From Epithemia pelagica (lineage: Eukaryota; Protista; Bacillariophyta): 64,000 nt of DNA. Positions 32,507 to 62,889 of the stretch are shown in pieces. A program made the translations under genes and the position numbers. Location: positions 372,001-436,000 of the forward strand of contig OX337234.1 in NCBI GenBank assembly GCA_946965045.2, in the 5' to 3' direction. Every line of letters begins with the position of its first letter. Positions within the stretch are counted from its first letter, which is position 1. The notes below the pieces were generated by a model that was not told where the DNA came from, ran no database searches, and worked only from the letters and a program-made list of their open reading frames with translations.

Positions 32507-32537
<31 letters not shown>

Positions 32538-35081: not shown

Positions 35082-37819
35082 ATGCCACCAAAGAGGCGCG
35101 ACGATAGTGCACCATGGAATATATCTCTACCTAGCTGTAGTAGAGTTGGAGGACATGACAGAGAGATACACGAATCATCGACGCCCGACCACACAGAACC
35201 ATATCGAGCAAAGGTCGTAGATATCATCATGTCGAGCGACGAGCAAAGAAACATGCCTGAGCAAAGTGTTTGGGTCAAGGTTATCCAAAAGACGAGCAGT
35301 GACAATTACGAGGACCTCGGAGATCTGTTTCAGATAGTGCCGCGTCCGGCGAACGTGAGTCACTTGCGCGAGAAAGTCAAGGAAAAGGCGGCAAACAACC
35401 TTGCGCATGTTGCCGCTAATGAACTCCTTGTCTACCGTCTCAACAACGAAGTCAGACTGCCGGACGACAATAATGCAATCTTTTCCTTGAATGACAACTC
35501 CACGAAGCTTCATCCAAGGATCCGAATGGACGATTTGCAACTACGAGAGGACGAAACTTTAGTTGTCGTTGCTCCGAAACCACAACAACAACAGCAGGTG
35601 AGTTTTGTTCATGCTTGATGAACTGAACTGAACTGAACTGAACTGAATTTGATTTCTTTTAAATGGTCGATTCTGTTGATGCATGTTTACTCAAACTGTA
35701 TATATATGTTTGTCTTTAACTCATTTTGAAAATCATCAAATCTTGGAACCTGTGTGCGCTAACGTCCGCAGTATGCTCGACTTCCTCTCCATTGAACTCA
35801 GTCGAACCATCACATGAAATAAGGCGCATGGACAATATTTCGTTGGATTGTTCCTTCCTGAAACTGCAGTTTTTGAAGGATCACGACTTAGATTCCTACG
35901 CCAACGCCGCGATAGCATGTGCCAATCAAGACGACGTTGACGAGTCGTTGGCGCATCTTGTCCCATTATCCACCACAACTCGTGGTGCCGCGTCGTTCAC
36001 AGCCATTATTGCGCCTTCGGGAACGGGCAAGACCCAGCTTGCCGCAACTGCGGCCTACAAGTACGGTGACAGGGTTCGCTATTTGCTTTGCGATGCCAGC
36101 TACTCCGACTTTGTTCAAGAGTTTTACGTACCTCACAAGGAACTGGCAATCCTGCTAAGAGATGCATTGAGAGACTTTGGACGGCTTGCCAACCAAGAGG
36201 GGTCAAATGGCGCAAATGCGTATCGGATTTGGTTTCGGGTAAGCGGTGTGGTTTGCCAATTGGCAACTTTATTGGACCGGATTTTGTTCCCAAACTCCGA
36301 ACGTCCAGACGCCAAAGTCACCTTTTCAAGCATACAAGAGAAAGTCAAGAATCTCGGAAAACATATGTTGGTGTTTCTGGACGAAATACCCTCCACTGGA
36401 AACTCTGACTACTCGCTATTCATCAGTCTTCGCGATGTTTTGAGAGCCCTTGGAATATCTCCTGTGCTCATGAGCACTCATACTGGAGCGCAGAATGCAA
36501 TTGTGCAAGGCTCTGAATCGAGTGGTAGTGATGCTGATCCTGACTGGTGTGGGCTTATTACCAGATTGCCCAGATTTCATACGACGAAACCGACCGACGA
36601 GATACCCTACCTAAGTCCACTGGAACGACCTTTGGTTGCCTCCTATCTATCTGAATTTGACCTTGCCGAGACTTCCCTCGACCAGATTGTCGAAACTGTC
36701 CAATCCAGGTTGCAGCGGAAAAAATCGTCGGCATGGACGGAGAATCCGGTCTTCCAGCTCTGTCAACTATTTCGAGCACAAGTCGACCACAATGCTACGG
36801 ATTTGACCACCTATCAGCTTGTTGGGAAACATTTTGGATACATGGTCAATCCTTCAAACTATTCCCGCCGAGACCATCGGCTCACGCGTTCTCAAGCCCT
36901 TCGTCTCGGTTTTCGCGTTCAAATGGTCGTCCCCAGCGAAGAGCCACTGTTGTTTACAGCATTGACAAGCTGGTCCACGTCTTCCTTGGACCCTAGCAAT
37001 CCAAAACTTTTTCCACTAGTTGATGAGACGCGCAATGCAATATCTGTTCGGAGAGCGTATCAGAAAAACTCGGAGCTATTCCAGCCCAGTGTTCCTTCCG
37101 CGAACCCAGCTGCCCTCAAACTAAATGGAGACTTGTTAGAGATGATCAGTCTTGCTTCGGTTTGCTTGGCGTCCATGAATTGTGACCGGGGTGTGGGACA
37201 AGGAATCCTGCTTCCGCATTTCTTTGCTTGTGTTTATCACTTTATGCAAAATACAGATGAGTTGCAAACCGACAAGGTTTCCGCAACCACGAAAGCCATT
37301 CAGTCGGCACTAAACGAGTACGCGACGACCAGCAAGTTTGTTGACGTGGTCATGCCGTGTTGCTCGAGTACTGACTCCCCCTACTTGGAGAAGTGGAAAA
37401 AAGCTACAGCCAATGCCTTTCAAGGTTCCTTGAAGCGCCGTCGGGAAGGTGAACGCCGGGATGGCTGCATCACCAAGCAAGTTGGGGACAAGATCCTGGA
37501 CGTAACACACGTTGAATGCACAAACTATGCTAACGGTTTGACAAAGGAGGTCTTTTCAAATGTGGTCAATCGTCTGAGATCGAACTGCGAAGTATCAGTT
37601 TTGTTTGCATCTTCCCTCCAAAACTTGTTTGCCGAGTCAGATATTAGTTGGGACAACTACATGGCGGACCAATTGCTGGTGGACCCTCACGAAGTGGCTT
37701 TTCTTGGGCTGTCGGCGGAAGGTCCGAGCTGGCTCACTGTTGAAAATGGCAAGGTTTCCCTCGCACCAACAGAAGAGACGAAGTTCCTCCTTGTAATTAT
37801 TGAAACCGGACCCATCTAG
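35082..37819 (+). CDS. CRN-like gene: ubiquitin-like header exon (35082 or 35229 to 35597), intron 35598-35771, NTPase+REase body; the spliced frame is broken by a 1-nt deletion near 35793
   Basis: The header VWVKV...VSHLREKVKEKAANNLAHVAANELLVY...LVVVAPKPQQQ matches the CRN N-terminal pattern (LK-x2-IK-x-K...L..VDA..L.LY and a terminal xLVVxP). The donor is GTGAGT, the branch point gctaac and the acceptor ccgcag. The body is a close paralog of 12205-14547. Confidence 0.75.
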
Positions 37820-37939
37820 TAGGCTGGGCTGTGCACCAATACAACGAATATCGCAGACCGAAATTCATTTCATCAGTCCATTTCTGTCGTGGTGAAATCG
37901 GAGAAGGGAAGAGGATGAGGCGACAGCGTCCTGCTACGA

Positions 37940-38990
37940 GGATCCTACGTGGACATTGCGGTGCTCTCGTTGTTAAGTAAGCACACTCAACAACAAAGCG
38001 ACAAGACAACCCAATAAAAGCGATGGAAGGTGTCGGACGTTATGTATGTATGAAACCAGTGTTGGATTGGCCTTTTATTATTGTGGTGGTGAAACGAACG
38101 TGATTCGATATGGATTGACAAACAGATGTACAAGAGAACAATAAGGTGCCAACGATATGCATGTACAGCATCGGCGAAATAGACGGTGTGTCCCTTTTTT
38201 GGACTGGAGTCTGACAAGACAGTCTTTCCTTTCTTTCACATGAAAGAAACGAGACAAAGCACGGAAAGAATGGCAATGGTGTTGATCCTTCCTTCCTCCC
38301 TAACTGCGAATGGGGAGAAGAATGGACCCCCTGCAAAAATAGCGGAATCCACATTCGAATCGTCGAGGAGCCCCAGACATGGGTGTGTGTGTGTCTGTGT
38401 GAAAAGACTCTCTCTCTCTCTCTCTCCGTGCGAAAACAGCACACGCAAGGAACGGTCCACTCCTACAAAACTATAGTGTCTAAAAACGTTGGGAGTGTAC
38501 CTACAAAAGAGTGCGACAACGCTCGAGACACAGATGACAAGAGAAGGAACGTTGCTATTCCCATGTTTCTTCTCGTAACGCTTTTGACATGGGACCTACT
38601 GCACTAGGAACGGCCATGCATTTAGCGAGGCGCTTGGTAGGCATTCCCAAGCCAGACGGTGACCACACCCTAGACAGCTACGGTGTATGGTGTGGTCACC
38701 CTCTGGCTTGGGAATTCCGGCCAAGCACAGTGCCAAATTGACAGCCGTTGCAAGTGCTCGGGCACGACATTTGCACCATTTGTTTGGCCGTGCATCGACA
38801 ACGGGTTCACGTACGTACGGATTGAAACATTCGATCGACGGACGACTATACTTGTGGCGACGCTGGATTGGGAATTGCCATGACCCGTGACCAACCAGCA
38901 ACTCCAACCGAATCATTGTATAGATCGTCGGTCGTCCATCGGAACCGGCCGTGGGAGCTGAATCGGTCAAGTCGGGCACTATATAGACCA
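37940..38990 (+). repeat. Dispersed repeat R, copy 2
   Basis: Aligns with 10349-~11500 and starts ~120 bp after the CRN stop codon. Confidence 0.85.
38643..38715. other. Hairpin in repeat R copy 2 (27-bp arms, 1 mismatch, 19-nt loop)
   Basis: attcccaagccagacggtgaccacacc (38643-38669) pairs with ggtgtggtcaccctctggcttgggaat (38689-38715). Confidence 0.85.
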
Positions 38991-39560
38991 TGGAATAGAG
39001 AACACGTACTCCCATGTCTAGGTAGGTAGTAGAGATCGAGTAGAGTTTGAGGACATGAAATAGAGAGAGACGAATCGACCAAGCAGAACCATACTCCAAG
39101 CTCGTTGGGAGGTTTGTTGCTGGGTCCCTGTGTGTGGGTGTGTGTCTTGTCGTAATCCTCTTGCAATCTTGCTCCGAACGATCCGACACAAGTTCAACGT
39201 CTATATGAAAAAACACAAAACTCGATCCTGTTTCAGCGTTAGTTGTGGTTTGGCTTATTAGATTCGCTGTTGGAAGATATCGAAATTGCCTTAAAAGCTT
39301 GTTCCGTCTCGGATTGCACTGCAGATAGATTATCAACAAGCTAGCCTTTCTCGTCCTAGAGAGGTCGCGTCAATGTCCCAAAAGGCTAGGTCGTTCGTCC
39401 AAACATCATCCAAGATTTCGGGGAGGCAACGTGTTCTCGTAGGACAGAATTCAGGTCTCGGCGTATATCTACAACCGATTATGCGTAAGAAAGTGCGCCG
39501 GTCAGTTGGATGGCACGTGTCTATAATTAATTTTGGTCCTGATGTCGGGAATCTGGTCCC

Positions 39561-39766
39561 GATCTCGGAATTCGGGTCGATCTCGGAATTCGGGCCAGAT
39601 CTCGGAATTCGGGTCGATCTCGGAATTCGGGCCAGATCTCGGAATTTGGGTTACTACTCTCAAATAAAGTATACTTTTGTCGGAATTCGGGTCGATCTCG
39701 GAATTCGGGCCAGATCTCGGAATTCGGGTCGATCTCGGAATTCGGGCCAGATCTCGGAATTTGGTC
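39561..39766. repeat. Alternating 18/19-bp tandem repeat (gatctcggaattcggg-tc / -cca), two blocks of five
   Basis: Directly visible. It forms a 37-bp higher-order unit. Confidence 0.9.
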
Positions 39767-40872: not shown

Positions 40873-41242
40873 GGCGGCAGCTCTCCTACGTATCCCTTAA
40901 TGGGGTATAAGCCTTGGCCTTATGGCCTTGGCCTGCTGGGTCTGCTAGCCTCCGCCAACAGGCCAACAGCAAAGATGCGCTTATTTCTCGGTTCTCCGAA
41001 TCACGTTCTTTGGACCCAGCCCCACCATTCGTGCCATTCTCAGCATTGCTTTTGTTTTCTCATTACACAGAAAAGCTTCTCCTTTTGAAGCGACACATCG
41101 TCTCTGATCTTCTTCTTCTTCTTCTTGTGTGGGATTGACGACTCTACCTCCTCTATTACTTGGTTTTGGACAGGCCAGGACGCAACAACGAGCGCATATC
41201 TCCAAACTCCAAACCACCAAGAACCACGAAACACACAACATC

Positions 41243-43498
41243 ATGAGTGAGACCACCAATGATGCGAATGGCAGTGCGGACACACCACCACCACCACAAT
41301 TACACAATGGATTGTTTCATGTCCAATCCAAAGATTGTCGGTACACGGATGAGGCCATTTATTCCAATTACACGTACGTTCGTTTGGTTGTTTCTTTGGT
41401 TCCATGGGTTTGTCTATGTCGTCGGGCAAACTCTCTCTCTCTCTCTCTCGGTGTAGTAATTGGGTTGGATCTCGCTCGCTCACTTTGATCCGTCTTGTTG
41501 TTGCTGTGGTTGTTGCTGGTCCTGACAGGTACGAAACGACCGTGGTGGATGGACCCGTCGTGCGACCGGTGCACACGAAATTGCGGTTTCGAACGCAACG
41601 AACGGTCCCCAAGGTACGACACCCGAAAACAGAGTACTGTTGTTGTCAAGGAAGGACCATGGTCTCACCCGAAAACCACAAACGATGGTTCTGTTCTTCT
41701 TCGTGTTGTTGTTGTTCTTGTTGGTTTTCCTGGCGTTGCTTTGGTTGGTTGCTTGGTTGTTGTCGTTGTGGAATGGGGTTTTGTCCATGACGCCACAATG
41801 ATGCACTCTCTATATATACATATTTATCGATACTTGGTTCTCGAATCATAGATGGGTGTCATGTTGGTGGGCTTGGGTGGCAACAATGGGAGTACTTGTG
41901 TGGCAGCGGCCGTGGCCAATCGCTTGGGCTTGACGTGGGAGACCAAACAGGGGACCCAGTCGGCCAATTATTGGGGCAGTTTGTTGTTGGCCAGTACGGT
42001 CAAATTAGGCCATGCCGCCGCCACGGGACAAGCCGTCTATACGCCCTTGCAATCCTTGCTGCCCCTTGGACATCCCAATGAGATTGTCTGGGGTGGCTGG
42101 GATATCAATGGGGCCAACTTGGCCGAGGCCATGAAACGGGCCCAAGTTTTGGAAGTGGACTTGCAACGACAATTGGAACCGCACTTGCGCGAGATTGTGC
42201 CGCTACCATCGATTTACCATGCCGATTTTATTGCCGCCAATCAACAAGAACGGGCCAACAATGTGTTGCCACCGGACATGACCAAATGGGAAAAAGTCCA
42301 ACACATTCGACGCGACATTGCCCAGTTCAAGGCGCACCATGACTTGGATCATGTCACGGTCGTGTGGACGGCCAATACCGAACGCTTTTGTGAAATTCAA
42401 CCGGGCGTTCATGATACCGCCGATCACTTGTTGCAAGCCTTGGAACAAGGCAACGATACGGAAGTGAGTCCGTCCACCTTGTTTGCCATTGCCTCCATTT
42501 TGGAACAGGCTCCCTTTGTCAATGGGTCGCCCCAAAATACCTTGGTTCCCGGCGTCGTTCAATTGGCCGAACGACATGGCGTCTTGATTGGCGGCGACGA
42601 TTTCAAATCGGGACAAACCAAACTCAAATCGGTCTTGGTGGATTTTCTCGTGTCGGCCGGCTGCAAGCCCGTCTCCATGGTCAGTTACAATCATTTGGGC
42701 AACAATGATGGCCGCAATCTCAGTGCTCCCCATCAATTCCGATCCAAGGAAATTTCCAAATCCAATGTCGTGGACGATATGGTGGCCTCCAATGCCATTT
42801 TGTATCCTCACGTGAATAAAACGGAAAACAAGGACACTACTACTACATCGGATCATCCCGATCATGTCGTGGTCATTAAATACGTTCCCTATGTGGGAGA
42901 TTCCAAACGGGCCATGGATGAATATACGTCAGAAATTTTCATGGGTGGAACCAATACCCTCGTCATTCACAATACCTGTCAAGATTCTCTCTTGGCCACA
43001 CCCTTGATTTATGATTTGATTCTCTTGACCGAATTGTGTTCCCGGATTCAAGTCCAAACAGTGGACGAACAGGACGATTCCACCTTGGACTCGGTCGTGA
43101 ACCAGGACGACAAGGACGACAAGAATACTACTGCTTGGGAACCCTTTCACCCCGTCTTGTCCCTCTTGTCCTACATGCTCAAGGCACCCATGGTTCCACC
43201 GGGTGCACCCGTTGTCAATGCCTTGTTTCCGCAACGAGAGGCCATTACCAATGTCCTCAAGGCCTGTCTGGGATTGCCGCCCGAAAATTACATGACCTTG
43301 CAGCACAAATTTGCCTCCTCCCTCCAACAGCAACACGACGAAACCATGCGGCGACGACAACAAACACAAGTAGAAGAGCAAGAAAAACAGACTAGTACCA
43401 ATGGAGTCTCGCATACCACCACCAATGGAGTGATGCCTACCAGCAATGGACACGCCACAAGGAATGGCACTGGACAGTACCAGAATGGAACTCACTAG
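41243..43498 (+). CDS. INO1: myo-inositol-1-phosphate synthase, intact copy; exons 41243-41373, 41529-41613, 41852-43498
   Basis: The spliced N-terminus reads [26 protein letters not shown]...[25 protein letters not shown]. The motifs LWTANTER-like (VWTANTERF), [37 protein letters not shown] and [10 protein letters not shown] are present. Both GT-AG introns keep frame. Confidence 0.97.
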
Positions 43499-47526: not shown

Positions 47527-48999
47527 CTACAGAAAATATATAGCAGCAGTCACCCAAACAATCGGTTCTGGTTGTAGTGTTGTTGTTGTGGTGGTTGCAG
47601 TTGTCGTGACACCCCGAGCCGCAGGAGGAGGCGAGGGGACGGAGGAGGACGACGAATCGTCGTGGTACAAATGCGATGCCGAAGACACGTCGTCGTCGTC
47701 GTCTTGATGAGAAGAGGATGGGGTGGCCCGATTCCAAGGGTGAAAGTATTCTTCGTCTTCTGTTTCTTTGTTTTCGTCCTCCAATAATTGCGTCCGTGGT
47801 TCTTCTTCCTCCCACTGACTGGTCCAGATTCCTTGATCCACGCACAACCAATCCATCCACACATATTCGGGTGGTGGTTGGGATTGTTGTTGTTGTTGTT
47901 GGGTGATTTCCTCCTGCCATTGGTGCAAGCGTTTCTGAACCAACGACAGGGGAGATTGACCCGACGCGGACAGGTAACTGGTGGCGGGTTGTGTCATGGT
48001 AGGATTCGTAGTACTCGAACGATGGTGGTCGTCCACCTTTTTTTTATCCCCTCCCGGGTGGTCCCCAACGACGAATCGTTCGTGGTTCGACACCGTCGTC
48101 AAACGAGCAGCAGCGGTAACGAGTTGTGGCACGTGGTGAATCAAGGGTCGAAACAAGTGTGTGTTGTTGGTGTCATCGGAATGTTGTTCTTGTTGTTCTT
48201 GTGGTTGTGGTTGTAATGATGATTGAGGAGCCGTACTGGCAGTCGTTCGATAGATCCATTCCAAGACGGCCACGCGTCGGACAAACCAGAGGGGACACTG
48301 ATAGTGACAAAGCGTTTGCCAATAGGGCAATTGGCACAGCACCGAGACGCACCAATCGAGACGAACGCCCCGTCGACTAAACCACCCATGGTCGTCCTTG
48401 TTGTTGTCAATGTTGTTGTCGTCCTCACTCGGCGAGACTCTGGATGGTGGTGGTGGTGGCTCTTGTGGTGGTGGTTGTTGGTTCAACTCGGCAATTAACT
48501 GGGGAATGGGTTTCAACGAATGATTGGGTAGCCCAATGGCTTGATTGTACAATTGACGGGCCAAGTGCCATTCTTGTTCCAACGTTGTCGTTATTGTCGT
48601 CGTAGTATTCTGACTGCTGATAGCCGCCTCATACCAATCGTCAAACGTGTCGTACTGCGGATACGACTCTTCTGGTTCGGTTTCGTCGGAATGGGAGGAT
48701 TCGTCGTTGTCGTCGTCCCTGCTGCTTTCGTCGTCATGGTCACTGTCGAGCGCCAACCGCAGAGTCGTATCGGTTTCTTCCAAGGCATCCTTCTTTGTGT
48801 TCTCGTCGTTGTCGTCCTTCTTGGGTGGTGACCATGGATCCGTCGTGTGCTGCCGCGGTTTGGTAGGAGTGGCCGCTGCTGCCGCCGCATCCTCCTTTTC
48901 AGTGGTTTTGGTGGTTCTTGTCGTCGCGCTCGTTGGCTGCGGTTTTTGGAATCCAGTGGAAGCGGGGGTAGATGCTGGTTTCGACTGTCGACACCCCAT
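47527..48999 (-). CDS. C-terminally truncated copy (490 aa) of the HET-like/TPR gene; N-terminus only, no TPRs
   Basis: Homologous to 33068-34546 (MGCRQSKP...YVWMDWLCVDQ...QPEP). Homology ends at 47563, and the ORF closes with the novel tail IVWVTAAIYFL*. It may be non-functional. Confidence 0.7.
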   Translation of the reverse strand: MGCRQSKPASTPASTGFQKPQPTSATTRTTKTTEKEDAAAAAATPTKPRQHTTDPWSPPKKDDNDENTKKDALEETDTTLRLALDSDHDDESSRDDDNDESSHSDETEPEESYPQYDTFDDWYEAAISSQNTTTTITTTLEQEWHLARQLYNQAIGLPNHSLKPIPQLIAELNQQPPPQEPPPPPSRVSPSEDDNNIDNNKDDHGWFSRRGVRLDWCVSVLCQLPYWQTLCHYQCPLWFVRRVAVLEWIYRTTASTAPQSSLQPQPQEQQEQHSDDTNNTHLFRPLIHHVPQLVTAAARLTTVSNHERFVVGDHPGGDKKKVDDHHRSSTTNPTMTQPATSYLSASGQSPLSLVQKRLHQWQEEITQQQQQQSQPPPEYVWMDWLCVDQGIWTSQWEEEEPRTQLLEDENKETEDEEYFHPWNRATPSSSHQDDDDDVSSASHLYHDDSSSSSVPSPPPAARGVTTTATTTTTTLQPEPIVWVTAAIYFL

Positions 49000-49750
49000 G
49001 ATGCTCCTCTTTTTCCCTCTCCCACAATTATGGAATGCAGCAATACGTCACTCGGGTCCGTCTCTCTCTCTCTCTCGCTTGTTTCCAGCCGAGGGAGAGT
49101 TTCTCGAATGGGTTGCGAACGCAGGCGGGTGCAACTCTCTCTGTATTAGAAAGAGGACCGGAATGGCAGACACTCTCGACACGACAAGAGTTCCAAACAC
49201 AACTCTCTGCCTCTGTCGTGTGCTGCGGATAATGTGTCTCTTCTTTTAGTGTGGTCGTTGTTGGATAGTCTCAAACTCCAAACGGCTCGATTCTCGTGGT
49301 TCCAATGATGATTCCACAAAGATTCCTGGTGTGCGGCGCGTCCAGATCTCATCGCCATCGCCATGGTCGCATGTGTGGGCACGAGACGGCACGCGTCGAA
49401 TCTCGAGCGGTTGAATTCCAGTAAAATCTGATGTTGATTTTGAATCAAATAGAGAAAGAAACGCCTGGGTAGTACCGAACCTGCAGAGCCTGCCATCCCT
49501 GCGGGACAGCCCGCCACGCCACCAAAGAGGCGCGACGACATAGTGCACCCGGTGCACTGGAACACACATGTGCTATTGTCGCCCAGAAGGAAGATTTCCA
49601 CGATACTCCCTATCTACCGTAGATACGGCCTCTTTTAAGAATGGTTAAATAGTCGGGTATCGAAAGCTCTAGGTAGTTGAGAAAAACGGTCCACGGCGCC
49701 AGATCTGCTTCCACCCATGTATATCGTCTCACAAAGTTCAATTTTTTTGT

Positions 49751-51431
49751 ATGCAACGAGCAAAGGTCGTAGAACTCATCATGTCGAGCGACGAGCAAGG
49801 AAACATGCCTGAGCAAAGTGTTTGGGTCAAGGTCATCCAAAAGACGGGTGAAGACAATTACGTGGACCTCGGAGATCCGTTTCAGATAGTGCCGCGTCCG
49901 GCGAACGTGAGTCACTTGCGCGAGAAAGTCAAGGAAAAGGCGGCAAACAACCTTGCGCATGTTGACGCTAATGAACTCCTTGTCTACCGTCTCAACAACG
50001 AAGTCAGACTGCCGGACGACAATCATGCAATCTTTTCCATGAATGGCAACTGCACGAAGCTTAATTCAATGACCCGAATGGAATCATTGCAACTACGAGA
50101 GGACGAGAATTTAATTGTCGTTGCTCCGAAACCACAACAGCAGCAGCAGCAGCAGGTAAGTTTTGTTCATGCTTGATGAACTGAACTGAACTGAATTTGA
50201 TTTCTTTTAAATGGTCGATTCTGTTGATGCATGTTTACTCAAACTGTATATATGTTTGTCTTTTACTCATTTTGAAAATCATCAAATCTTGGAACCTTTG
50301 TGCGCTTATCGTCCGCAGTATGCTCGACCACCTCTACATCCGAACTCAGTCGAACCCACCAAGAACCACGACACACACAACATCATGAGTGGGACCACCA
50401 ATGATGAAATGAATGAACAACAAAAACAACAGGCGAATGATTCGGAGGATATGAAACGGAAAATTGAAAACATAGAGAAAATGATGATCGAGTCAAAAAC
50501 GGATGACAGAAACATGTCGAAGGCGAACACTGAATTTGCAACCGATCTGTTGACCGGGCTGTCGATCTCCTGGCGTAACGCCGTCGCCAACATGAATGTC
50601 GGAGTCGGATCTGTTGTAGGAAATTTTGAATGGGAGCAAGCACTTTTGACGGGAGGAACAGGAAAACTTTCGGAAAATGATGGGACCCCATTGGCACTGA
50701 AATGGCTCTTTGGTAAGTTGGATCAAGCGCTTGCTGTGGACGGCAAGAAGCTAGGCATAAGAGACGTGAAAGGAAAGAAATTAGCACCTATCAAGGCCGA
50801 TCGAAAGGTGGCAAACGGCAAGTCTGACGGATGTGTTACGGAGGAATCAATGCTCGTACTTTGTGAGCGGTCTCAGGAATCGTTCTACACATACGGTATG
50901 GCACTGGTCGAGATGAAGACCGACAGGACGCCGATGAATAAGGCCCAAATGTTACTCCAGCTTGCTGCTTTCTCGAGGGAAAGTGTATGGGGGCAATCAA
51001 CAATTCTGCTGGGTACGGATGGGAACAAGAAATGGTACTTGGTACAATTTGAGGCCCTCAACAGCATGTTGATAACCCAGTACTATGATGGGCGGGAGTG
51101 TTTGAATGAATTTGAATCTCTCCTGTAGTCTTTGAAAACCAGGGAGGCAAAACTGCGAGGTAGCAAGCGCGCTAAACTTGCTCCAGTATTGGAAGAACAG
51201 TTTCAATCAGAACATCATCTTCCTGGGGCTTCTACCCCGGGCACAGCTTCTCTAGCATGGACCGATGGAGCGGGAGAAGGCCAGGATGCTGTGGACAAGG
51301 CAATAGAGAACGAGGCTCTGTTACATCGACTTGCTAACGCACTTGCGGAGTCACCTTTGAGTGACGGAGTCCGCCCATCTCTTCCGGAATGGTCTCTTGC
51401 TAAAAATGTGGTTCCTTCATACTATACGTAG
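49751..51431 (+). pseudogene. CRN header (49751-50155) + intron + REase exon (50319-51431) with a premature TAG at 51126-51128
   Basis: The splice is in frame (QQQ|YARPPLHP). AAG in the 61-62 kb copy is TAG here, and the frame continues to 51431. Confidence 0.8.
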
Positions 51432-52729
51432 AGGGGAAGGATTGAAACCATTCTAAGAAAGCTTTTCCCCTAGCTCACACATGCTAACCCCAAAATACAA
51501 ATGTCACCGCTCAAGATTTTCTGCAATTCTGAAGATCCACAGCGACTACCTCTGTTTAGAATTAAGGTGTTGTGGAATCGAACCACTGCGCTACCAGCCA
51601 CCTTAATCCAACTATTAGTCGTATGTACGTCGTCCGCAAACTGTCCCCCCAATGGAGATTTTTTTCTCGATTCATATCCTATTTTCCATAAAAAATCAGA
51701 AAGGACACGCCGGCATTTCCTTGTCACATTTCAAATCAGTTTGAGCGACCCAGCGTGCATGACGGTTGCCGTTGGTGGTTGGTGCACGACACTCATAAAA
51801 CAAACAAACCTCCAGTACAGCGGCCGTGTCCATGGCAATTCTTGCAATGGCATGATTTTTCAGCTTCCATGCTACCCAGGTACGTCAAGAAAGACAGTGC
51901 TGCGATTGGGCTAAGGACAAGCATCTCAATAGTCCCTCCCTGTTGTTTTTGTTCGCATACACCCCTTGAGCCCCATTTTCTGGACTCGTTGCGACGTCTC
52001 ACTTTTCACCAGTCCAATTTTGCTTGTAGTCTTTATGATTGATTCATTTGTAGCCCTTTTACTCCGATACTAGTCTAGGTAGAATTCCTGTTCTATATTT
52101 TATCATAGGGGTAAATATGAAGGTCAATGGTGGTGTCCTGCTCGACCAGGGATTCTCTTGTCTTTTTTCTTCTCCTTCTCCTCGTCTTCACCTTGAAGAA
52201 GATTCAGCAAACACTAAGAATTTGTCTCAGCGACCATTAGCCTAGAAAGAAAGTGGTGACAATCAGCCTCATGATGTAGTACTACTCCTAAGAGTAAGAA
52301 GAAGAAACCAAATCGTCCCCAACCAAGAAGACAACTCGAACCATGGATGTGACAAGCCCTACAATCAGAAAATGGGCGAAAACACTACCAATCTATCAAT
52401 CCTAAGAAGAAACAGAAGGCACAAACAACAACTGAAGGAAAGACGCGCTCTGTCTACAGTCTACAATGATTCGTCCGCGGTTCATGTGCCATGGCCGATG
52501 GTCTTACCGGTACCGTGATAGGGCCCTTCAGATTTTGCTCGCATGGTTTTTATGAGCTGTCGCTCGCGAGCGTCTGGAATTTGAATCGTGTTGATCAGAG
52601 GACGCCCGCCAACCTTCAACTGTCACTTGCACGCCGGCCATTCTACATGACGATTTGCTTTTGGGACATTTTATGGGGGAGAAGGACAGAGTTCTGTGCG
52701 GACGACGTACGTACGGTTTATAGGTGGTC

Positions 52730-54943
52730 ATGGCAGTGCGGACACACCACCACCACCACAATTACACAATGGATTGTTTCATGTCCAATCCAAAGATTGT
52801 CGGTACACGGATGAGGCCATTTATTCCAATTACACGTACATTCGTTTGGTTGTTTCTTTGGTTCCATGGGTTTGTCAATGTCGTCGGGCAAACTCTCTCT
52901 CTCTCTCTCGGTGTAGTAATTGGGTTGGATCTCACTCGCGCACTTTGATCCGTCTTGTTGTTGTTGTTGCTGGTCCTGACAGGTACGAAACGACCGTGGT
53001 GGATGGACCCGTCGTGCGACCGGTGCAGACGAAATTGCGGTTTCGAACGCAACGAACGGTCCCCAAGGTACGACACCCGAAAACAGAGTACTGTTGTTGT
53101 CAAGGAAGGACCATGGTCTCACCCGAAAACCACAAACGATGGTTCTGTTCTTCTTCGTGTTGTTGTTGTTCTTGTTGGTTTTCCTGGCGTTGCTTTGGTT
53201 GGTTGCTTGGTTGTTGTCGTTGTGGAATGGGGTTTTGTCCATGACGCCACAATGATGCACTCTCTATATATACATATTTATCGATACTTGGTTCTCGAAT
53301 CATAGATGGGTGTCATGTTGGTGGGCTTGGGTGGCAACAATGGGAGTACTTGTGTGGCAGCGGCCGTGGCCAATCGCTTGGGCTTGACGTGGGAGACCAA
53401 ACAAGGGACCCAGTCGGCCAATTATTGGGGCAGCCTGTTATTGGCCAGTACGGTCAAATTGGGTCATGCCGCCGCCACCGGAGAGGCCGTCTATACGCCC
53501 TTGCAATCCTTGTTGCCCCTTGGACATCCCAATGATATCGTGTGGGGTGGCTGGGATATAAATCGGGCCAATTTGGCCGAGGCCCTGAAACGGGCCCAAG
53601 TCTTGGAAGTGGACTTGCAACAACAATTGGAACCGTATTTGCGCGAGATTGTGCCGCTGCCATCGATTTACCATGCCGATTTTATTGCCGCCAATCAACA
53701 AGAACGGGCCAACAATGTGTTGCCACCGGACATGACCAAATGGGAAAAAGTCCAACACATTCGACGCGACATTGCCCAGTTCAAGGCGCACCATGACTTG
53801 GATCATGTCACGGTCGTGTGGACGGCCAATACCGAACGCTTTTGTGAGATTCAACCGGGCGTTCATGATACCGCCGATCACTTGTTGCAAGCCTTGGAAC
53901 AAGGCAACGATACGGAAGTTAGTCCGTCCACCTTGTTTGCCATTGCCTCCATTTTGGAACAGGCCCCCTTTGTCAATGGGTCGCCCCAAAATACCTTGGT
54001 TCCCGGCGTTGTCCAATTGGCCGAACGACACGGCGTCTTGATTGGCGGCGACGATTTCAAATCGGGACAAACCAAACTCAAATCGGTCTTGGTCGATTTT
54101 CTCGTGTCGGCCGGCTGCAAGCCCGTCTCTATGGTCAGTTACAATCATTTGGGCAACAATGATGGCCGCAATCTCAGTGCTCCCCATCAATTCCGATCCA
54201 AGGAAATTTCCAAATCCAATGTCGTGGACGATATGGTGGCCTCCAATGCCATTTTGTATCCTCACGTGAATAAAACGGAAAACAAGGACACTACTAGTAC
54301 ATCGGGTCATCCCGATCATGTCGTGGTCATTAAATACGTTCCCTATGTGGGAGATTCCAAACGGGCCATGGATGAATATACGTCAGAAATTTTCATGGGT
54401 GGAACCAATACCCTCGTCATTCACAATACCTGTCAAGATTCTCTCTTGGCCACACCCTTGATTTATGATTTGATTCTCTTGACGGAATTGTGTTCCCGGA
54501 TTCAAGTCCAAAAAGTGGACGAACAGGACGATTCCACCTTGGACTCGGTCGTGGACAATGACAATGACAAGAATACCACTGCTTGGGAACCCTTTCATCC
54601 CGTCTTGTCCCTCTTGTCCTACATGCTCAAGGCACCCATGGTTCCACCGGGTGCACCCGTCGTCAATGCCTTGTTTCCGCAACGAGAGGCCATTACCAAT
54701 GTCCTCAAGGCCTGTCTGGGATTGCCACCCGAAAATTACATGACCTTGCAACACAAATTTGCCTCCTCCCTCCAACAGCAACACGACGAAACCATGCGGC
54801 GACGACAACAACAAGAAGAAGAGCAAGAAAAACAGACTAGTACCAATGGCGTCTCGCATACCACCACCAATGGAGTGATGCCTACCAGGAATGGGCACGC
54901 CACAAGGAATGGCACTGGACAGTACCAGAATGGAACTCACTAG
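52730..54943 (+). pseudogene. INO1: INO1 copy 2, separated from its ATG and promoter (5' piece at 50356-50406)
   Basis: Homology to copy 1 starts abruptly at 52730, inside codon 9, and the rest is intact (both introns, ORF 53306-54943). It could at most initiate at the MGVML of exon 3. Confidence 0.75.
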
Positions 54944-55931: not shown

Positions 55932-58762
55932 CTACAGCACTACGCAACAACAGCCAGCATTTTGTTGAACAGGCAACAATGGTTCTCCTGTTTCCCGCTC
56001 GTAAATTAAGAATTCAATCACCTCTGTGGCATAGGCGCGGGGATTCGTCCAATCCCAGTTTCGATAGTAGGTTTCATCTTGTTCGGTTAACACCGTTTCT
56101 TGATAGGTCTTGTCTTCGACAAAATTACCAATTTCGGCTTGACTGGCCGCATTGACATCCTTGGCTGGTACATAGGGAGGCCGTTTTCGATCGGAAATGA
56201 TGGATTCCCAATTGACATTGCGAAAGTAGGGATGGGCCATAATTTCTTCGCATCCACCCGTGCCCAATCGCTTGTGTTCGTCCTTTTCCAGTAAGCGCAT
56301 ACACAAATCTTTGGCATCCGGTTCAAAGTATTCCTTGGGAAAATCTGGTTCCATTTCCAGTGTGGCACAATCAATGGCTTTTTCCTTGGTTTGTTTGCCC
56401 TTGGACAAGCCAAAGTTGAGAGCGGCTTCGGATCGGAACGGATTGGCCCCGCAAATGAATTCGGTGACACAGCACCCAAAACTGAACCAATCGACCGTGT
56501 GTCCATAGGGCATGCGTTTGCCACGCTTGTCGCGACGCAACATTTCCGGGGCCCAATACCCACGCGTACCCGCGGCGCCGTGCAAGGTGGGAGTAATTTT
56601 GGTGGCCAAGCCCAAATCCGTGATTTTGACACGACCGTCATCGGCCATGAGACAATTCTCTGGCTTCAAATCGCGGTAGACATAGCCTTGATCATGCAAG
56701 GCTTGCAATCCCAACATGATGCGGGCTGCGTAATATTGGACTTCTCGTTTGGGGAAGCGACCCTTTTGGTGCAAATGGAAACCCAAATCACCACCCGTCA
56801 TGAGATCCAATATCAGATAGACATCGTCCTTGCTATGAAACGAGTATTTGAGATTCACCACAAAGTTGCTTTCCACAGCAGCCAAGGCAGATCGTTCATT
56901 TACTGCCAGTGTTTCTGATTTCTTCATTTTGATCCGTCTCTTGTTCATGACCTTCATTGCATAGAGTTTTCCGGATGTACCCTTCTTGCAAGCTACGAAG
57001 AAAGGAACAGGTGAGAACCAGTTGGATGCCGTTGTCAACATGTGTGTGTGTGTGTGGCTTGTGACGGTTCCTGCAAAACCACACGTTGGACGACCGTCTC
57101 TACCACAAAAAGCGCAACGACAGACACACACACTAGCACTACTAGAGACATGTACGTACCATTGACCAACCCAAAGCCTCCTCGTCCCAAGACTCGCATG
57201 ATATAAAAATCTTCGGGTACAACGGGTCGATCCTGATACCACAAGAATTGTTTGGCCTTGAGAAATTCTTGCGATTCCAAAAACAAGTGCCAATAATCGC
57301 GTCGAAGCGATTCCATCACGACCGTTTCCGCCTTGTCAAAGAGGCCATCGTAGACGGCTTCTTTTTGCGATTGCAAAAATCGATGTTTCAACAATCGCAT
57401 ACTCATGGTGGCCTCTCCAAATTCTTCCACCGACAATCCCGAAACACTCCGTTCTCCCATGAGAGCCGGTGGCGGTGCCTTGCGCGGTGTGTGGGAGGAA
57501 GAGCCCATCGATGCCGTGTCGGTTGTCGTATTAGTGGGAGCAGCAGGAGCAGGAGGACTGCTATTACTGGGCGGTTGGGATTGGGGAGGTTGTCCATGAT
57601 TGGACGATTGAAAGGATAAGGACGAGGACGCAGCCGTATCGGCATCCTTGACAGCCTTGGCTTCGGCGGATTCCTCCGGTTTGGTGGCATCCGTATTAGG
57701 GTCAAGTGTTTCCACTTGTGGTTGTTGTTGCTGTTGTGGTGGTGGTTGAGGTTGGTTCCATCCAGATGATGATAGGGTCGTCGGATTGGCGGTGGGGACT
57801 GTGGCATCGGTGGAAGCCGATGCCGATCCATCGGCCGTCGTTTCCTCCGTAGTATTCGGTGGTTCCACGGACGACGATCGTCCTCCTCCGGTACTGCCAC
57901 CACTGCTACGTCGCGTCGATCGTGGTTTGGACGACGACAGTGTCGTTGTATTCGTAGTCGTAAAGTCACCACTGGCCGTACTACTGGCCGACGCTCGTCG
58001 TCCATTGGATCCATGGTGTGATGGTGGGTGTCGTGATTTGGCGGCAGCCACGGCGGCTTCTTCCTTTTCCTTTTCTTCCCATTCTCTCCAATCGTCAATC
58101 AAATCGTCCAAAGTGGCATCGCGAATGCCAATCAAGGATTGACTGCATTTGGGATAATCGCAATAAATTCGAAAGGTTGCATCTTCTTTTAAATAGGCAT
58201 GGGTCGATTGGCGATCGTTCACGATTCGTTCCAAATCGCATTCGTCAATTTCCGTCCGCGGTGGCAATTGCGTCGTGCCCACGGCCCACGCGGCTGCACC
58301 CGCCGCCGATTCCGCCACCAAATTCCCATTGTTCGTGGCATCTTTGGGGGCTGTCGTCGTTGGATTCGTACTCGTCGTAGCAGCCGGTGTTACGGTTGCT
58401 CCGGCGGCGGGCGGTGGACTGGGTTTGACCAAAATGTAGTGTTCCAAAATGGCTTGGGCTTGTTTGCGTCGCGATCGGCCGCGCAATTTTTTGAACCTCA
58501 ACACATCTTCGCAAAAATTGAGACGCACATAATCGTCGTGATGTTGTTTGATAAAACTGGAAAACAAAAAGACACAAATGGCCGATTGTTCCAAAAAGGA
58601 ATCCAAATTGCCCAAACTACGGGCCTTGGTTTTGGACCATTCCACCAACAATTCATCCGACGACGGTGTCTCCCAGGGCAAGACGGGTTTGGGTCCATCG
58701 TCTTGCGTATTGATCGCATTCACGTATTGGGCGTCTTCAATGGCATCCTGTAATTCTTCCAT
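55932..58762 (-). CDS. GRK: GRK-like kinase, copy 2; exons 58762-57160 and 56992-55932
   Basis: Same structure and exon lengths (1603 + 1061 nt) as copy 1, with scattered substitutions and compensating small indels. Confidence 0.9.
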
Positions 58763-58951
58763 GATGAAGAATCCGCCGGTAGTCTCTGTATATCGTGCTT
58801 GGTTCTAGCAGCACGATTGTGGTGGCTGTGGTTGTTGGTTTGTCAATAATAATTCTTCGGATTATATATCCTCGACAACAGGAACGGTTCTCACCTCCAA
58901 ACGGTCAAGGAACCAAAAGAGACGAATGGATGCCTTTTCGTTTGGATCTCT

Positions 58952-60424
58952 CTACAGAAAATATATAGCAGCAGTCACCCAAACAATCGGTTCTGGTTGT
59001 AGTGTTGTTGTTGTGGTGGTTGCAGTTGTCGTGACACCCCGAGCCGCAGGAGGAGGCGAGGGGACGGAGGAGGACGACGAATCGTCGTGGTACAAATGCG
59101 ATGCCGAAGACACGTCGTCGTCGTCGTCTTGATGAGAAGAGGATGGGGTGGCCCGATTCCAAGGGTGAAAGTATTCTTCGTCTTCTGTTTCTTTGTTTTC
59201 GTCCTCCAATAATTGCGTCCGTGGTTCTTCTTCCTCCCACTGACTGGTCCAGATTCCTTGATCCACGCACAACCAATCCATCCACACATATTCGGGTGGT
59301 GGTTGGGATTGTTGTTGTTGTTGTTGGGTGATTTCCTCCTGCCATTGGTGCAAGCGTTTCTGAACCAACGACAGGGGAGATTGACCCGACGCGGACAGGT
59401 AACTGGTGGCGGGTTGTGTCATGGTAGGATTCGTAGTACTCGAACGATGGTGGTCGTCCACCTTTTTTTTATCCCCTCCCGGGTGGTCCCCAACGACGAA
59501 TCGTTCGTGGTTCGACACCGTCGTCAAACGAGCAGCAGCGGTAACGAGTTGTGGCACGTGGTGAATCAAGGGTCGAAACAAGTGTGTGTTGTTGGTGTCA
59601 TCGGAATGTTGTTCTTGTTGTTCTTGTGGTTGTGGTTGTAATGATGATTGAGGAGCCGTACTGGCAGTCGTTCGATAGATCCATTCCAAGACGGCCACGC
59701 GTCGGACAAACCAGAGGGGACACTGATAGTGACAAAGCGTTTGCCAATAGGGCAATTGGCACAGCACCGAGACGCACCAATCGAGACGAACGCCCCGTCG
59801 ACTAAACCACCCATGGTCGTCCTTGTTGTTGTCAATGTTGTTGTCGTCCTCACTCGGCGAGACTCTGGATGGTGGTGGTGGTGGCTCTTGTGGTGGTGGT
59901 TGTTGGTTCAACTCGGCAATTAACTGGGGAATGGGTTTCAACGAATGATTGGGTAGCCCAATGGCTTGATTGTACAATTGACGGGCCAAGTGCCATTCTT
60001 GTTCCAACGTTGTCGTTATTGTCGTCGTAGTATTCTGACTGCTGATAGCCGCCTCATACCAATCGTCAAACGTGTCGTACTGCGGATACGACTCTTCTGG
60101 TTCGGTTTCGTCGGAATGGGAGGATTCGTCGTTGTCGTCGTCCCTGCTGCTTTCGTCGTCATGGTCACTGTCGAGCGCCAACCGCAGAGTCGTATCGGTT
60201 TCTTCCAAGGCATCCTTCTTTGTGTTCTCGTCGTTGTCGTCCTTCTTGGGTGGTGACCATGGATCCGTCGTGTGCTGCCGCGGTTTGGTAGGAGTGGCCG
60301 CTGCTGCCGCCGCATCCTCCTTTTCAGTGGTTTTGGTGGTTCTTGTCGTCGCGCTCGTTGGCTGCGGTTTTTGGAATCCAGTGGAAGCGGGGGTAGATGC
60401 TGGTTTCGACTGTCGACACCCCAT
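58952..60424 (-). CDS. Truncated HET-like/TPR N-terminus, second copy (490 aa)
   Basis: The translation appears identical to 47527-48999. Confidence 0.7.
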   Translation of the reverse strand: MGCRQSKPASTPASTGFQKPQPTSATTRTTKTTEKEDAAAAAATPTKPRQHTTDPWSPPKKDDNDENTKKDALEETDTTLRLALDSDHDDESSRDDDNDESSHSDETEPEESYPQYDTFDDWYEAAISSQNTTTTITTTLEQEWHLARQLYNQAIGLPNHSLKPIPQLIAELNQQPPPQEPPPPPSRVSPSEDDNNIDNNKDDHGWFSRRGVRLDWCVSVLCQLPYWQTLCHYQCPLWFVRRVAVLEWIYRTTASTAPQSSLQPQPQEQQEQHSDDTNNTHLFRPLIHHVPQLVTAAARLTTVSNHERFVVGDHPGGDKKKVDDHHRSSTTNPTMTQPATSYLSASGQSPLSLVQKRLHQWQEEITQQQQQQSQPPPEYVWMDWLCVDQGIWTSQWEEEEPRTQLLEDENKETEDEEYFHPWNRATPSSSHQDDDDDVSSASHLYHDDSSSSSVPSPPPAARGVTTTATTTTTTLQPEPIVWVTAAIYFL

Positions 60425-61208
60425 GATGCTCCTCTTTTTCCCTCTCCCACAATTATGGAATGCAGCAATACGTCACTCGGGTCCGTCTCTCTCTCTCTCT
60501 CGCTTGTTTCCAGCCGAGGGAGAGTTTCTCGAATGGGTTGCGAACGCAGGCGGGTGCAACTGTCTTTCTATATATGTGAGAGAAAAAGGACCGGAATGGC
60601 AGACACTCTCGACACGACAAGAGTTCCAAACACAACTCTCTGCCTCTGTCGTGTGCTGGTGAATGTGCCTCTTCTTCTTCTTTTCTTGTGGTCTCTTGTT
60701 GTTGGATGATAGTCTCAAACTCCAAACGGCTCGATTCTCGTGGTTCCAATGATGATTCCACAAAGATTCCTGGTGTGCGGCGCGTCCAGATCTCATCGCC
60801 ATCGCCATGGTCGCATGTGTGGGCACGAGACGGCACGCGTCGAATCTCGAGCGGTTGAATTCCAGTAAAATCTGATGTTGATTTTGAATCAAATAGAGAA
60901 AGAAACGCCTGGGTAGTACAGAGTCCGGAGCCGACCTGCATGCAGAGCCTGCCATCCCTGCGGGACAGCCCGCCACGCCACCAAAGAGGCGCGACGATAG
61001 TGCACCCGGTGCACTGGAACACACATGTGCTATTGTCGCCCAGAAGGAAGATTTCCACGATACTCCCTATCTACCGTAGATACGGCCTCTTTTGAGAATG
61101 GCTGAATAGTCGGGTATCGAAAGCTCTAGGTAGTCGAGAAAAACGGTCCACGGCGCCAGATCTGCTTCCACCCATGTATATCGTCTCACACAGTTCAATT
61201 TTTTTTGT

Positions 61209-62889
61209 ATGCAACGAGCAAAGGTCGTAGAACTCATCATGTCGAGCGACGAGCAAGGAAACATGCCTGAGCAAAGTGTTTGGGTCAAGGTCATCCAAAA
61301 GACGGGTGAAGACAATTACGTGGACCTCGGAGATCCGTTTCAGATAGTGCCGCGTCCGGCGAACGTGAGTCACTTGCGCGAGAAAGTCAAGGAAAAGGCG
61401 GCAAACAACCTTGCGCATGTTGACGCTAATGAACTCCTTGTCTACCGTCTCAACAACGAAGTCAGACTGCCGGACGACAATCATGCAATCTTTTCCATGA
61501 ATGGCAACTGCACGAAGCTTAATTCAATGACCCGAATGGAATCATTGCAACTACGAGAGGACGAGAATTTGATTGTCGTTGCTCCGAAACCACAACAGCA
61601 GCAGCAGCAGCAGGTAAGTTTTGTTCATGCTTGATGAACTGAACTGAACTGAATTTGATTTCTTTTAAATGGTCGATTCTGTTGATGCATGTTTACTCAA
61701 ACTGTATATATGTTTGTCTTTTACTCATTTTGAAAATCATCAAATCTTGGAACCTTTGTGCGCTTATCGTCCGCAGTATGCTCGACCACCTCTACATCCG
61801 AACTCAGTCGAACCCACCAAGAACCACGACACACACAACATCATGAGTGGGACCACCAATGATGAAATGAATGAACAACAAAAACAACAGGCGAATGATT
61901 CGGAGGATATGAAACGGAAAATTGAAAACATAGAGAAAATGATGATCGAGTCAAAAACGGATGACAGAAACATGTCGAAGGCGAACACTGAATTTGCAAC
62001 CGATCTGTTGACCGGGCTGTCGATCTCCTGGCGTAACGCCGTCGCCAACATGAATGTCGGAGTCGGATCTGTTGTAGGAAATTTTGAATGGGAGCAAGCA
62101 CTTTTGACGGGAGGAACAGGAAAACTTTCGGAAAATGATGGGACCCCATTGGCACTGAAATGGCTCTTTGGTAAGTTGGATCAAGCGCTTGCTGTGGACG
62201 GCAAGAAGCTAGGCATAAGAGACGTGAAAGGAAAGAAATTAGCACCTATCAAGGCCGATCGAAAGGTGGCAAACGGCAAGTCTGACGGATGTGTTACGGA
62301 GGAATCAATGCTCGTACTTTGTGAGCGGTCTCAGGAATCGTTCTACACATACGGTATGGCACTGGTCGAGATGAAGACCGACAGGACGCCGATGAATAAG
62401 GCCCAAATGTTACTCCAGCTTGCTGCTTTCTCGAGGGAAAGTGTATGGGGGCAATCAACAATTCTGCTGGGTACGGATGGGAACAAGAAATGGTACTTGG
62501 TACAATTTGAGGCCCTCAACAGCATGTTGATAACCCAGTACTATGATGGGCGGGAGTGTTTGAATGAATTTGAATCTCTCCTGAAGTCTTTGAAAACCAG
62601 GGAGGCAAAACTGCGAGGTAGCAAGCGCGCTAAACTTGCTCCAGTATTGGAAGAACAGTTTCAATCAGAACATCATCTTCCTGGGGCTTCTACCCCGGGC
62701 ACAGCTTCTCTAGCATGGACCGATGGAGCGGGAGAAGGCCAGGATGCTGTGGACAAGGCAATAGAGAACGAGGCTCTGTTACATCGACTTGCTAACGCAC
62801 TTGCGGAGTCACCTTTGAGTGACGGAGTCCGCCCATCTCTTCCGGAATGGTCTCTTGCTAAAAATGTGGTTCCTTCATACTATACGTAG
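61209..62889 (+). CDS. Intact CRN-like effector: Ubl header exon 61209-61613 + exon 61777-62889 encoding a PD-(D/E)xK REase (505 aa spliced)
   Basis: The GTAAGT...ccgcag intron is phase 0. The C-terminus has FEW...SENDG..., DVKG, GKSDGCV, MALVEMKT, AQMLLQLAA and ILLGTDGNKKWYLV, matching the D...ExK...Q...TD..W pattern of CRN C-terminal nucleases. Confidence 0.8.

What the first reader, a model, noticed from the sequence alone, without database searches (positions are those of the whole stretch)
35082..62889. Crinkler-like modular toxin/effector system caught shuffling headers and nuclease bodies
Seen: two headers and two bodies occur in three combinations. These are header B + NTPase-REase (12205-14547), Ubl header A + the same NTPase-REase (35082-37819), and header A + an unrelated REase (49751-51431, 61209-62889). 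The switch point in header-A genes lies just after the LVVVAP-polyQ motif and intron, at gtcgaacc (about 35810 vs 50355). Established: oomycete and fungal CRNs diversify by recombination after the HVLVVVP motif, and many C-termini are REase or NTPase+REase domains related to mobile elements. Inference: a presumably free-living alga is running the same combinatorial system, for defence, competition or selfish spread. No signal peptide is evident.
Basis: partly seen in the sequence, partly recalled or inferred. Interest (0 to 1): 0.85.

Follow-up and report, generated by a model that had tools for sequence, protein, structure and literature searches.

The report
Diatom Crinkler-like genes swapping modules
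In a likely diatom, genes resembling the Crinkler effectors of plant pathogens pair different front ends with predicted DNA-cutting back ends, but two of the three copies of the shared front end here are broken, and the intact one is a patchwork that contains a scrap of a housekeeping gene.

Summary
The three header-body pairings exist at the stated places. Header A is a divergent Crinkler-type N-terminal domain (Pfam PF20147 E 1e-4, just under the cut-off; 6 of its 23 relatives pass it). Body 2 is predicted to have a restriction-endonuclease fold with an intact D..ExK motif. Near-identical database proteins widen the set to five headers on three bodies, and named relatives are diatom proteins.

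Header A + NTPase-REase (35082-37819) is out of frame under the homologous splice (stop after 7 codons). One A + REase copy has a premature stop. Both NTPase-REase copies read ExT where 19 of 19 more distant homologues have K. gtcgaacc is not a header-body joint: in the REase genes it joins header A to 57 bp of the neighbouring INO1 gene's start, and body 2 sits inside INO1, whose remainder resumes 2.3 kb later.

Verdict: likely diatom members of the known CR (Crinkler/RHS) class, diversifying by duplication, non-homologous joining and decay. Function, expression and secretion are untested.

The parts
12205..14547 (-). Gene B: intronless 780-aa ORF; about 92-aa N-terminal 'header B' of unknown fold, Q-rich linker, body 1 (P-loop NTPase + helical region + predicted REase with ExT in place of ExK)
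   Evidence: close counterparts P0001 and P0108 lie on another contig
27071..34546 (-). 2500-aa TPR-repeat gene, head to head with header A (about 680 bp between starts); its 5' part was duplicated together with header A
35229..35597 (+). Header A exon, copy A1 (Crinkler-type Ubl-like domain + polyQ); an in-frame ATG lies upstream at 35082
   Evidence: (PF20147 E 1.7e-4, 22.7 bits, cut-off 24.6)
35598..35771 (+). Predicted phase-0 intron of A1
   Evidence: splice sites read from sequence, no transcript seen
35772..35827 (+). Exon-2 stub shared with A2/A3 up to 35808 (one base shorter, stop after 7 codons in the header frame), then 19 bases of unassigned origin
35828..37819 (+). Body 1 in A1: 663-aa ORF from its own ATG, out of frame with header A, ExT motif
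   Evidence: (P0002)
37940..38939 (+). Copied fragment of 10349-11458 (3' end and downstream of a membrane-protein gene next to gene B), inverted relative to body 1; about 8% substitutions
41208..43498 (+). INO1 (myo-inositol-1-phosphate synthase) copy 1; predicted exons 41243-41373, 41529-41613, 41852-43498; source of the 57-bp piece
47563..49549 (-). Duplicated 5' fragment of the TPR gene and its upstream region (second copy at 58988-61006)
49781..50155 (+). Header A exon, copy A2 (in-frame ATG also at 49751); intron 50156-50318
50350..50406 (+). 57-bp piece of INO1 5' UTR and first seven codons inside A2, in frame with header A and body 2 (same piece in A3 at 61808-61864)
50407..52729 (+). 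Segment lying between the two parts of INO1 copy 2: body 2 (REase, to 51431, premature TAG at 51126-51128) plus 1.3 kb of flank; no terminal inverted repeats or target duplication found
52730..54943 (+). Remainder of INO1 copy 2, from codon 9; no in-frame ATG before exon 3
61239..62889 (+). Gene A3, the only intact header-A gene in the window: header exon 61239-61613, intron 61614-61776, exon 2 (stub + INO1 piece + REase body with D170/E198/K200, KRAK and a conserved C-terminal helix)

Best explanation
These are likely diatom members of the CR (Crinkler/RHS-type) class: genes that join interchangeable N-terminal headers to predicted nuclease bodies, which likely act inside the cell's own nucleus, and that turn over fast, with two of the three header-A copies here broken. 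Shown in sequence: the pairings, the joints, the breaks and the nested duplications. Inferred history: (1) body 1 from a gene-B-like donor was joined behind the header A exon, together with a neighbouring fragment of the donor region; (2) the block TPR 5' end - header A - ... - INO1 - kinase was duplicated in tandem (6-9% divergence); (3) in the copy, 5.4 kb were lost between similar short sequences, bringing the header A stub against the INO1 5' end; (4) more recently a header-less body 2 with 1.3 kb of flank entered INO1 at codon 7-8, in frame; (5) the unit was duplicated again (0.6%). The order of steps 3 and 4 is not established. New pairings therefore likely arise by duplication and repair-type, non-homologous joining rather than by crossover at a conserved motif. 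The most likely role of intact members is intracellular defence or cell suicide through DNA cleavage (about 45%), ahead of selfish or neutral persistence (about 40%) and export against competitors (about 15%).
For: Header A: PF20147 at E 1.4-1.7e-4. Of its 23 relatives among 1.84 billion proteins, 16 hit PF20147 at E<=0.05 and 6 pass the cut-off. Body 2 model (pLDDT 73, core above 85) aligns with restriction-endonuclease folds: BpuSI Z 9.7, rmsd 3.7, 134 aligned; DrdV Z 8.9, 3.2, 130; TT1808 Z 8.8, 3.8, 131. Its Asp and Glu are invariant in 11 of 11 aligned sequences and the Lys is kept in 10 of 11. Body 1 has Walker A and B motifs and a C-terminal D..ExK pattern in 19 of 19 homologues outside the close copies. 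Near-identical modules occur in other pairings: body 2 behind headers C (P0026, P0061, P0071; 92-97%) and D (P0067; 98.8%); the first 65 residues of header A on a third body (P0022-P0024, P0039, P0073, P0077; 88-93%); that body also behind header E (P0075). Named relatives are diatom proteins (Seminavis, Entomoneis, Bacillariaceae). Contigs of public runs leave the A1 sequence at 35792 and 35597 into other sequence, and at 35808 into the A2/A3 continuation (one study). INO1 split. Birth-and-death with many pseudogenes and fragment recombination is described for Phytophthora CRNs (PMC3726527, passages).
Against: Header A is below Pfam's cut-off and was not folded. Neither body matches a named CR family in Pfam, NCBIfam or PADLOC beyond weak NTPase hits. 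The REase fold of body 1 rests on motif and secondary structure only, and its NTPase matches are middling (best Z 8.7, rmsd 4.9, 196 aligned). The two best fold matches of body 2 are mitoribosomal proteins (Z 10.7 and 10.0), so fold alone shows no activity. Purifying selection is not shown for header A (dN/dS 1.5, P 0.6) and is borderline for body 1 (0.63, P 0.06), against 0.13 and 0.02 for the INO1 and kinase copies. All four close body-1 copies that keep this stretch in frame read ExT. Nothing here tests function. That the other contigs belong to the same species is inferred from near-identity only.
Confidence: 0.62

Rival explanations
1. The header-A genes in this window are unselected debris of an unstable, repeatedly duplicated region. 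The functional CR genes lie elsewhere, and these chimeras only look like a combinatorial system.
For: Two of three header-A genes are broken. Header A dN/dS is 1.5. The same events also copied a TPR 5' fragment, a membrane-protein gene fragment and split INO1. The counterpart of the A1 body on another contig is itself in two pieces (P0106, P0107).
Against: Both joints in A2/A3 keep the frame (chance about 1 in 9). Intronless open header-body ORFs with the same modules exist elsewhere (P0026, P0067, P0073, P0077). Distant homologues also carry unrelated headers, so swapping is old and recurrent.
Confidence: 0.23
2. The bodies are selfish mobile elements that insert themselves by their own NTPase and nuclease and pick up host promoters and exons, header A among them.
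For: Body 2 sits inside INO1 and is 98.8-99.7% identical to copies on other contigs. The body 1 NTPase resembles MuB and TnsC among others (Z 8.1-8.2). A selfish CRN-like gene is described in animals (PMC12957317, abstract and section 6).
Against: No terminal inverted repeats or target-site duplication bound either segment. Body 2 lacks an NTPase and arrived without its own 5' end. Body 1 came with an inverted neighbour fragment, as segmental copying would give. Body 1 lacks the motif lysine.
Confidence: 0.1
3. The chimeras, the frameshift or the stop are assembly errors such as collapsed haplotypes or indel errors.
For: A2 and A3 differ at only 2 of 1654 bases. The one-base difference in A1 has no read-level check. 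No listed contig was seen to span the A1 joint (tables cut).
Against: A second contig of 519,440 bases carries counterparts of gene B, the A1 body, the A3 ORF and two INO1 copies. A contig from another sample crosses the joint at gtcgaacc into the A2/A3 sequence. The duplicates have graded, nested divergences.
Confidence: 0.05

Closest known systems
CR (Crinkler/RHS-type) proteins as redefined by Zhang et al. 2016 (seen only through the review PMC5289972, section 11 read; the paper itself was not held)
   Same: Ubl or helical header without a signal peptide, joined to NTPase+REase or REase C-termini; several unrelated headers on related bodies; presence in free-living eukaryotes.
   Different: Header A scores under the Pfam cut-off and has no LxLFLAK. 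The bodies match no named family in the libraries searched. The header is its own exon, and the joints here include host-gene DNA.
Phytophthora CRN effectors (PMC3726527, passages read)
   Same: The same N-terminus on unrelated C-termini and the reverse; tandem and segmental duplication; many pseudogenes; header ends in a motif like HVLVVVP (here L[VI]VVAP).
   Different: The host is likely a diatom, with no evidence of delivery into another organism. Breakpoints lie 36 or more bases into the next exon, or in mid-header on the third body, not at the motif.
AACRN/AACRNL, selfish Crinkler-like ADP-ribosyltransferase genes of animals (PMC12957317, abstract and section 6 read)
   Same: Crinkler-type gene in a free-living eukaryote, multi-copy, near transposons.
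   Different: Bodies here are predicted nucleases, not ADP-ribosyltransferases; header A is not degenerate; no self-amplification was shown.

Membership tests
CR / Crinkler proteins | N-terminal CR-Ubl header (Pfam PF20147) in header A | tested here: inconclusive
   22.7-23.0 bits against a cut-off of 24.6, E 1.4-1.7e-4, the best family hit for both copies scanned; 6 of 23 relatives pass the cut-off; no fold was predicted for the header
CR / Crinkler proteins | Recognised header in 'header B' | tested here: inconclusive
   No Pfam hit at E<=0.05, no match to the header A profile or to a four-sequence profile of small headers, pLDDT under 50 over residues 25-78; no search was run with header B alone
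CR / Crinkler proteins | Terminal-strand motif like HVLVVVP closing the header | tested here: met
   TLVVVAP and NLIVVAP at the end of the header exon; LIV[VI]AP-like motif in 11 of 23 relatives that end soon after it
CR / Crinkler proteins | REase-fold C-terminal domain with catalytic motif (body 2) | tested here: met
   Fold matches to BpuSI, DrdV, TT1808, HsdR (Z 8.1-9.7); D170, E198, K200 conserved
CR / Crinkler proteins | P-loop NTPase followed by REase (body 1) | tested here: inconclusive
   NTPase supported (AAA_22 E 8e-4; STAND/AAA+ folds Z about 8). REase rests on a D..ExK pattern in 19 of 19 homologues and on secondary structure; the window's copies read ExT; this domain was not folded alone
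CR / Crinkler proteins | Same header on unrelated bodies and same body behind unrelated headers | tested here: met
   Five headers on three bodies among modules 87-100% identical; in the window one of the three pairings is out of frame
Oomycete CRN effectors (narrow sense) | LxLFLAK motif | tested here: not met
   Absent from header A; the matching stretch reads LLVYRLN
Oomycete CRN effectors (narrow sense) | Recombination breakpoint at the end-of-header motif | tested here: not met
   Homology runs on through polyQ, the intron and 37 bases of exon 2; bodies start further downstream
Oomycete CRN effectors (narrow sense) | Secretion and translocation into a host cell; nuclear action | not testable with these tools
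   No hydrophobic segment in the first 40 residues of header A, basic KRAK and KRRR patches in the bodies; these are hints only
Autonomous DNA transposon | Terminal inverted repeats and target-site duplication around the body segments | tested here: not met
   None found at 50407/52729 or around 35809-41207

The most novel reading that the evidence does not exclude
Diatoms carry a large, unannotated CR arsenal in which a self-contained header exon, with its promoter and splice donor, works as a capture cassette: whatever ORF a rearrangement drops behind it in frame becomes a new fusion. This locus would record the process base by base, including a stage in which the Crinkler header was fused in frame to the housekeeping enzyme INO1 before a nuclease body entered the same joint, beside a TPR receptor-like gene that shares the promoter region.
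Probability: 0.2. Interest if true: 0.75.

Novelty: new member of a known kind. Interest (0 to 1): 0.5.

Why it matters
What Crinkler-type proteins do in organisms that infect nothing is an open question. This locus gives a likely diatom example with one intact candidate (61239-62889), relatives in culturable diatoms (Seminavis, Entomoneis) and resolved joints showing how a new header-body pair can be born from ordinary duplication and repair. It also warns that header-body matrices counted from DNA overstate the working repertoire: here one pairing is out of frame, one copy is truncated, and one body has lost a motif residue.

Tried and rejected
No genome is held for this window, so the genome-wide header x body matrix could only be approximated from protein clusters. 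No RNA holder was listed among 5 runs; the kind of the four runs laid is not on record, so they say nothing about splicing or expression. Contig tables were cut, so the A1 joint and its one-base difference remain unchecked in reads. Close viral or prokaryotic relatives of the bodies: none for body 2 in viral contigs (0 of 29 candidate stretches); for body 1 three short P-loop matches only (3 of 149) and none in prokaryote genomes (0 of 250); one eukaryote-like metagenome locus for body 2 (1 of 66, L001, with yet another header). Foldseek gave no match at E<=0.001 for either model. The header alignment found nothing significant in PDB sequences. The two small INO1 exons found nothing alone in PDB sequences; their assignment rests on splice sites, frame, the 72 codons they supply against 54-77 missing residues and recalled likeness to plant INO1 N-termini. 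A HET-like domain in the TPR gene was suspected by eye but has no Pfam support. PolyQ as the breakpoint: fits body 2 behind headers C and D but not the joints in this window. The ESM Atlas gave no answer. Six literature searches on Crinkler or CR proteins in diatoms or free-living eukaryotes (listings only) showed no paper describing them in diatom genomes; Zhang et al. 2016 and its supplements could not be read and may list diatom members. Five look-ups in earlier findings returned nothing on this locus or family.
Full report
1. What is in the sequence. Self-comparison of the window shows body 1 twice (12089-14191 minus, 35839-37935 plus, 95.6%), header A with its intron three times (35205-35808, 49757-50356, 61215-61814) and a 10.5-kb tandem unit twice (41268-51776, 52730-63234). 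Header A is an exon of 123-125 codons ending in L[VI]VVAPKP-polyQ, followed by a phase-0 GT..AG intron. Gene B (14547-12205) is one open frame of 780 codons. No whole genome is held.

2. State of the genes. With the homologous acceptor, A3 reads through for 370 codons, A2 stops at codon 270, and A1 stops after 7 codons because it is one base shorter between the acceptor and gtcgaacc. In-frame splices for A1 would need a GTTTTG donor, GC or intra-exon donors, or acceptors inside the body. A2 and A3 differ at 2 of 1654 bases, one being the stop. Both window copies of body 1, and two close copies on another contig, read ECT where 19 of 19 more distant homologues have K; one further close copy is frameshifted before this point. 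So only A3 is an intact header-A gene with a complete predicted nuclease motif.

3. What the modules are. Header A hits Pfam Crinkler (PF20147) at E 1.4-1.7e-4, about 2 bits under the cut-off. A search of 1.84 billion proteins gave 23 relatives; 16 of 23 hit PF20147 and 6 of 23 pass the cut-off. Eleven of 23 end soon after the LIV[VI]AP motif, as an intron at the same place would cause (inferred from protein ends). Body 2 is predicted with a confident core that aligns with restriction-endonuclease folds (BpuSI Z 9.7, rmsd 3.7, 134 residues; DrdV 8.9, 3.2, 130; TT1808 8.8, 3.8, 131), behind two mitoribosomal proteins at Z 10.7 and 10.0; D170, E198 and K200 are conserved. Body 1 has a P-loop NTPase with middling matches to STAND and AAA+ proteins (best Z 8.7, rmsd 4.9, 196 residues); its REase assignment rests on motif and secondary structure. 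The two bodies are unrelated by profile comparison. Header B remains unassigned.

4. Swapping beyond the window. Among the 108 stored proteins compared, body 2 occurs at 92-99% identity behind two other headers (P0026, P0061, P0071; P0067), the first 65 residues of header A occur at 88-93% on a third body (P0022-P0024, P0039, P0073, P0077), and that body also follows a fifth header (P0075). More distant homologues of both bodies carry further unrelated headers, several ending in Q runs. Named relatives come from Seminavis robusta, Entomoneis sp. and a Bacillariaceae assembly, which with the GT-AG introns makes a diatom host likely. Contigs of four public runs (one study) leave the A1 sequence at 35597 and 35792 into sequence absent from the window, and at 35808 into the A2/A3 continuation.

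5. How the joints were made. The 57 bases after the parting point in A2/A3 match 41208-41264 at 53 of 57 (next best unrelated place 30 of 57). That stretch is the 5' UTR and first seven codons of INO1: two small exons with canonical introns supply 72 in-frame codons ahead of the INO1 ORF, where solved enzymes have 54-77 residues. INO1 resumes at codon 9 at 52730. Body 2 and 1.3 kb of flank therefore lie inside INO1 copy 2, without terminal repeats or target duplication. In A1, body 1 begins at about 35828-35839, after 19 unassigned bases, and is followed by an inverted fragment of the region next to gene B. Header A was duplicated as part of a larger block with the TPR 5' end (8-9% substitutions), header (6%), and INO1 and kinase (dS 0.08-0.09); the last duplication is at 0.6%. 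The history in Best explanation is inferred from these values; the order of the deletion and the body 2 insertion is open. If the deletion came first, header A was for a time in frame with INO1.

6. Selection. Pairwise dN/dS (Nei-Gojobori): header A 1.5 (25 changes, P 0.6), body 1 0.63 (P 0.06), TPR fragment 0.69 (P 0.05), INO1 0.13 and kinase 0.02 (both P about 1e-11). The CR modules are much less constrained than their neighbours; the counts cannot separate relaxed from diversifying selection.

7. Mechanism. Most likely these are CR-type genes made and lost at a high rate. The header exon supplies promoter, start and a Ubl-like domain; the body supplies a predicted nuclease with basic patches that could direct it to the nucleus. 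With no signal segment, action inside the producing cell is more likely than export (inference). Defence or cell suicide is the leading guess, close to selfish or neutral persistence; none is tested.

8. Relation to what is known. The review PMC5289972 (passages; section 11 whole) reports that CR proteins with Ubl or helical headers and NTPase+REase bodies occur in free-living eukaryotes. PMC3726527 (passages) describes N/C-terminal exchange, fragment recombination and about half pseudogenes in Phytophthora CRNs. PMC12957317 (abstract, passages and section 6) lists chlorophytes, plants, amoebozoans and animals and describes a selfish variant. Searches (listings only) showed no paper on diatom CR genes, but Zhang et al. 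2016 and its supplements were not available and may include them.

9. Verdict. Observation partly confirmed, interpretation partly supported. A new, likely diatom member of a known class, with an unusually legible record of how a new pairing forms. Interest 0.5.

Noticed in passing
window 41268-63429: Tandem array of an INO1 + RGS/kinase (GRK-like) block. INO1 copy 2 has lost its start codon yet differs from copy 1 with dN/dS 0.13 (33 synonymous, 15 non-synonymous changes), so it was likely functional until recently or is being gene-converted. A third INO1 start is cut after 14 bases at 63429.
   Followed up: partly
window 27071-34546 (-): 2500-aa TPR protein with an MGC N-terminus and an unannotated N-terminal region holding a YVWMDWLCVDQ motif that recalls HET domains (from memory; no Pfam support). 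It lies head to head with header A.
   Followed up: partly
window 15561-19029: DDE_Tnp_4 (Harbinger-type) transposase fragment at 18162-18836 (E 1.8e-7) and an unknown acidic ORF at 15741-16583, between 28-bp inverted repeats, about 1 kb upstream of gene B.
   Followed up: partly
window 39282-40047: MITE-like element: 32-bp inverted repeats (97%) around tandem 18/19-bp units.
   Followed up: no
P0022-P0025, P0073, P0075, P0077-P0079: A third body (P-loop NTPase, 590 aa, no Pfam match) behind a half-swapped header A; in three records a second header is nested between the header A half and the body.
   Followed up: partly
window 51126-51128: The stop in A2 falls at codon 270 of exon 2, after the predicted nuclease core but before the KRAK patch and the conserved C-terminal helix, so a truncated product would keep the core.
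   Followed up: partly
P0105: A body 2 homologue with two headers in tandem: the header of P0030 in front of the header of P0033.
   Followed up: no
window 16-4107: Two Kelch-repeat gene copies, 81% identical.
   Followed up: no
P0062 and P0087: A 99.7% copy of body 2 and a member of a Seminavis robusta protein cluster lie on contigs of the same length, a weak hint that the host is a Seminavis-like pennate diatom.
   Followed up: no
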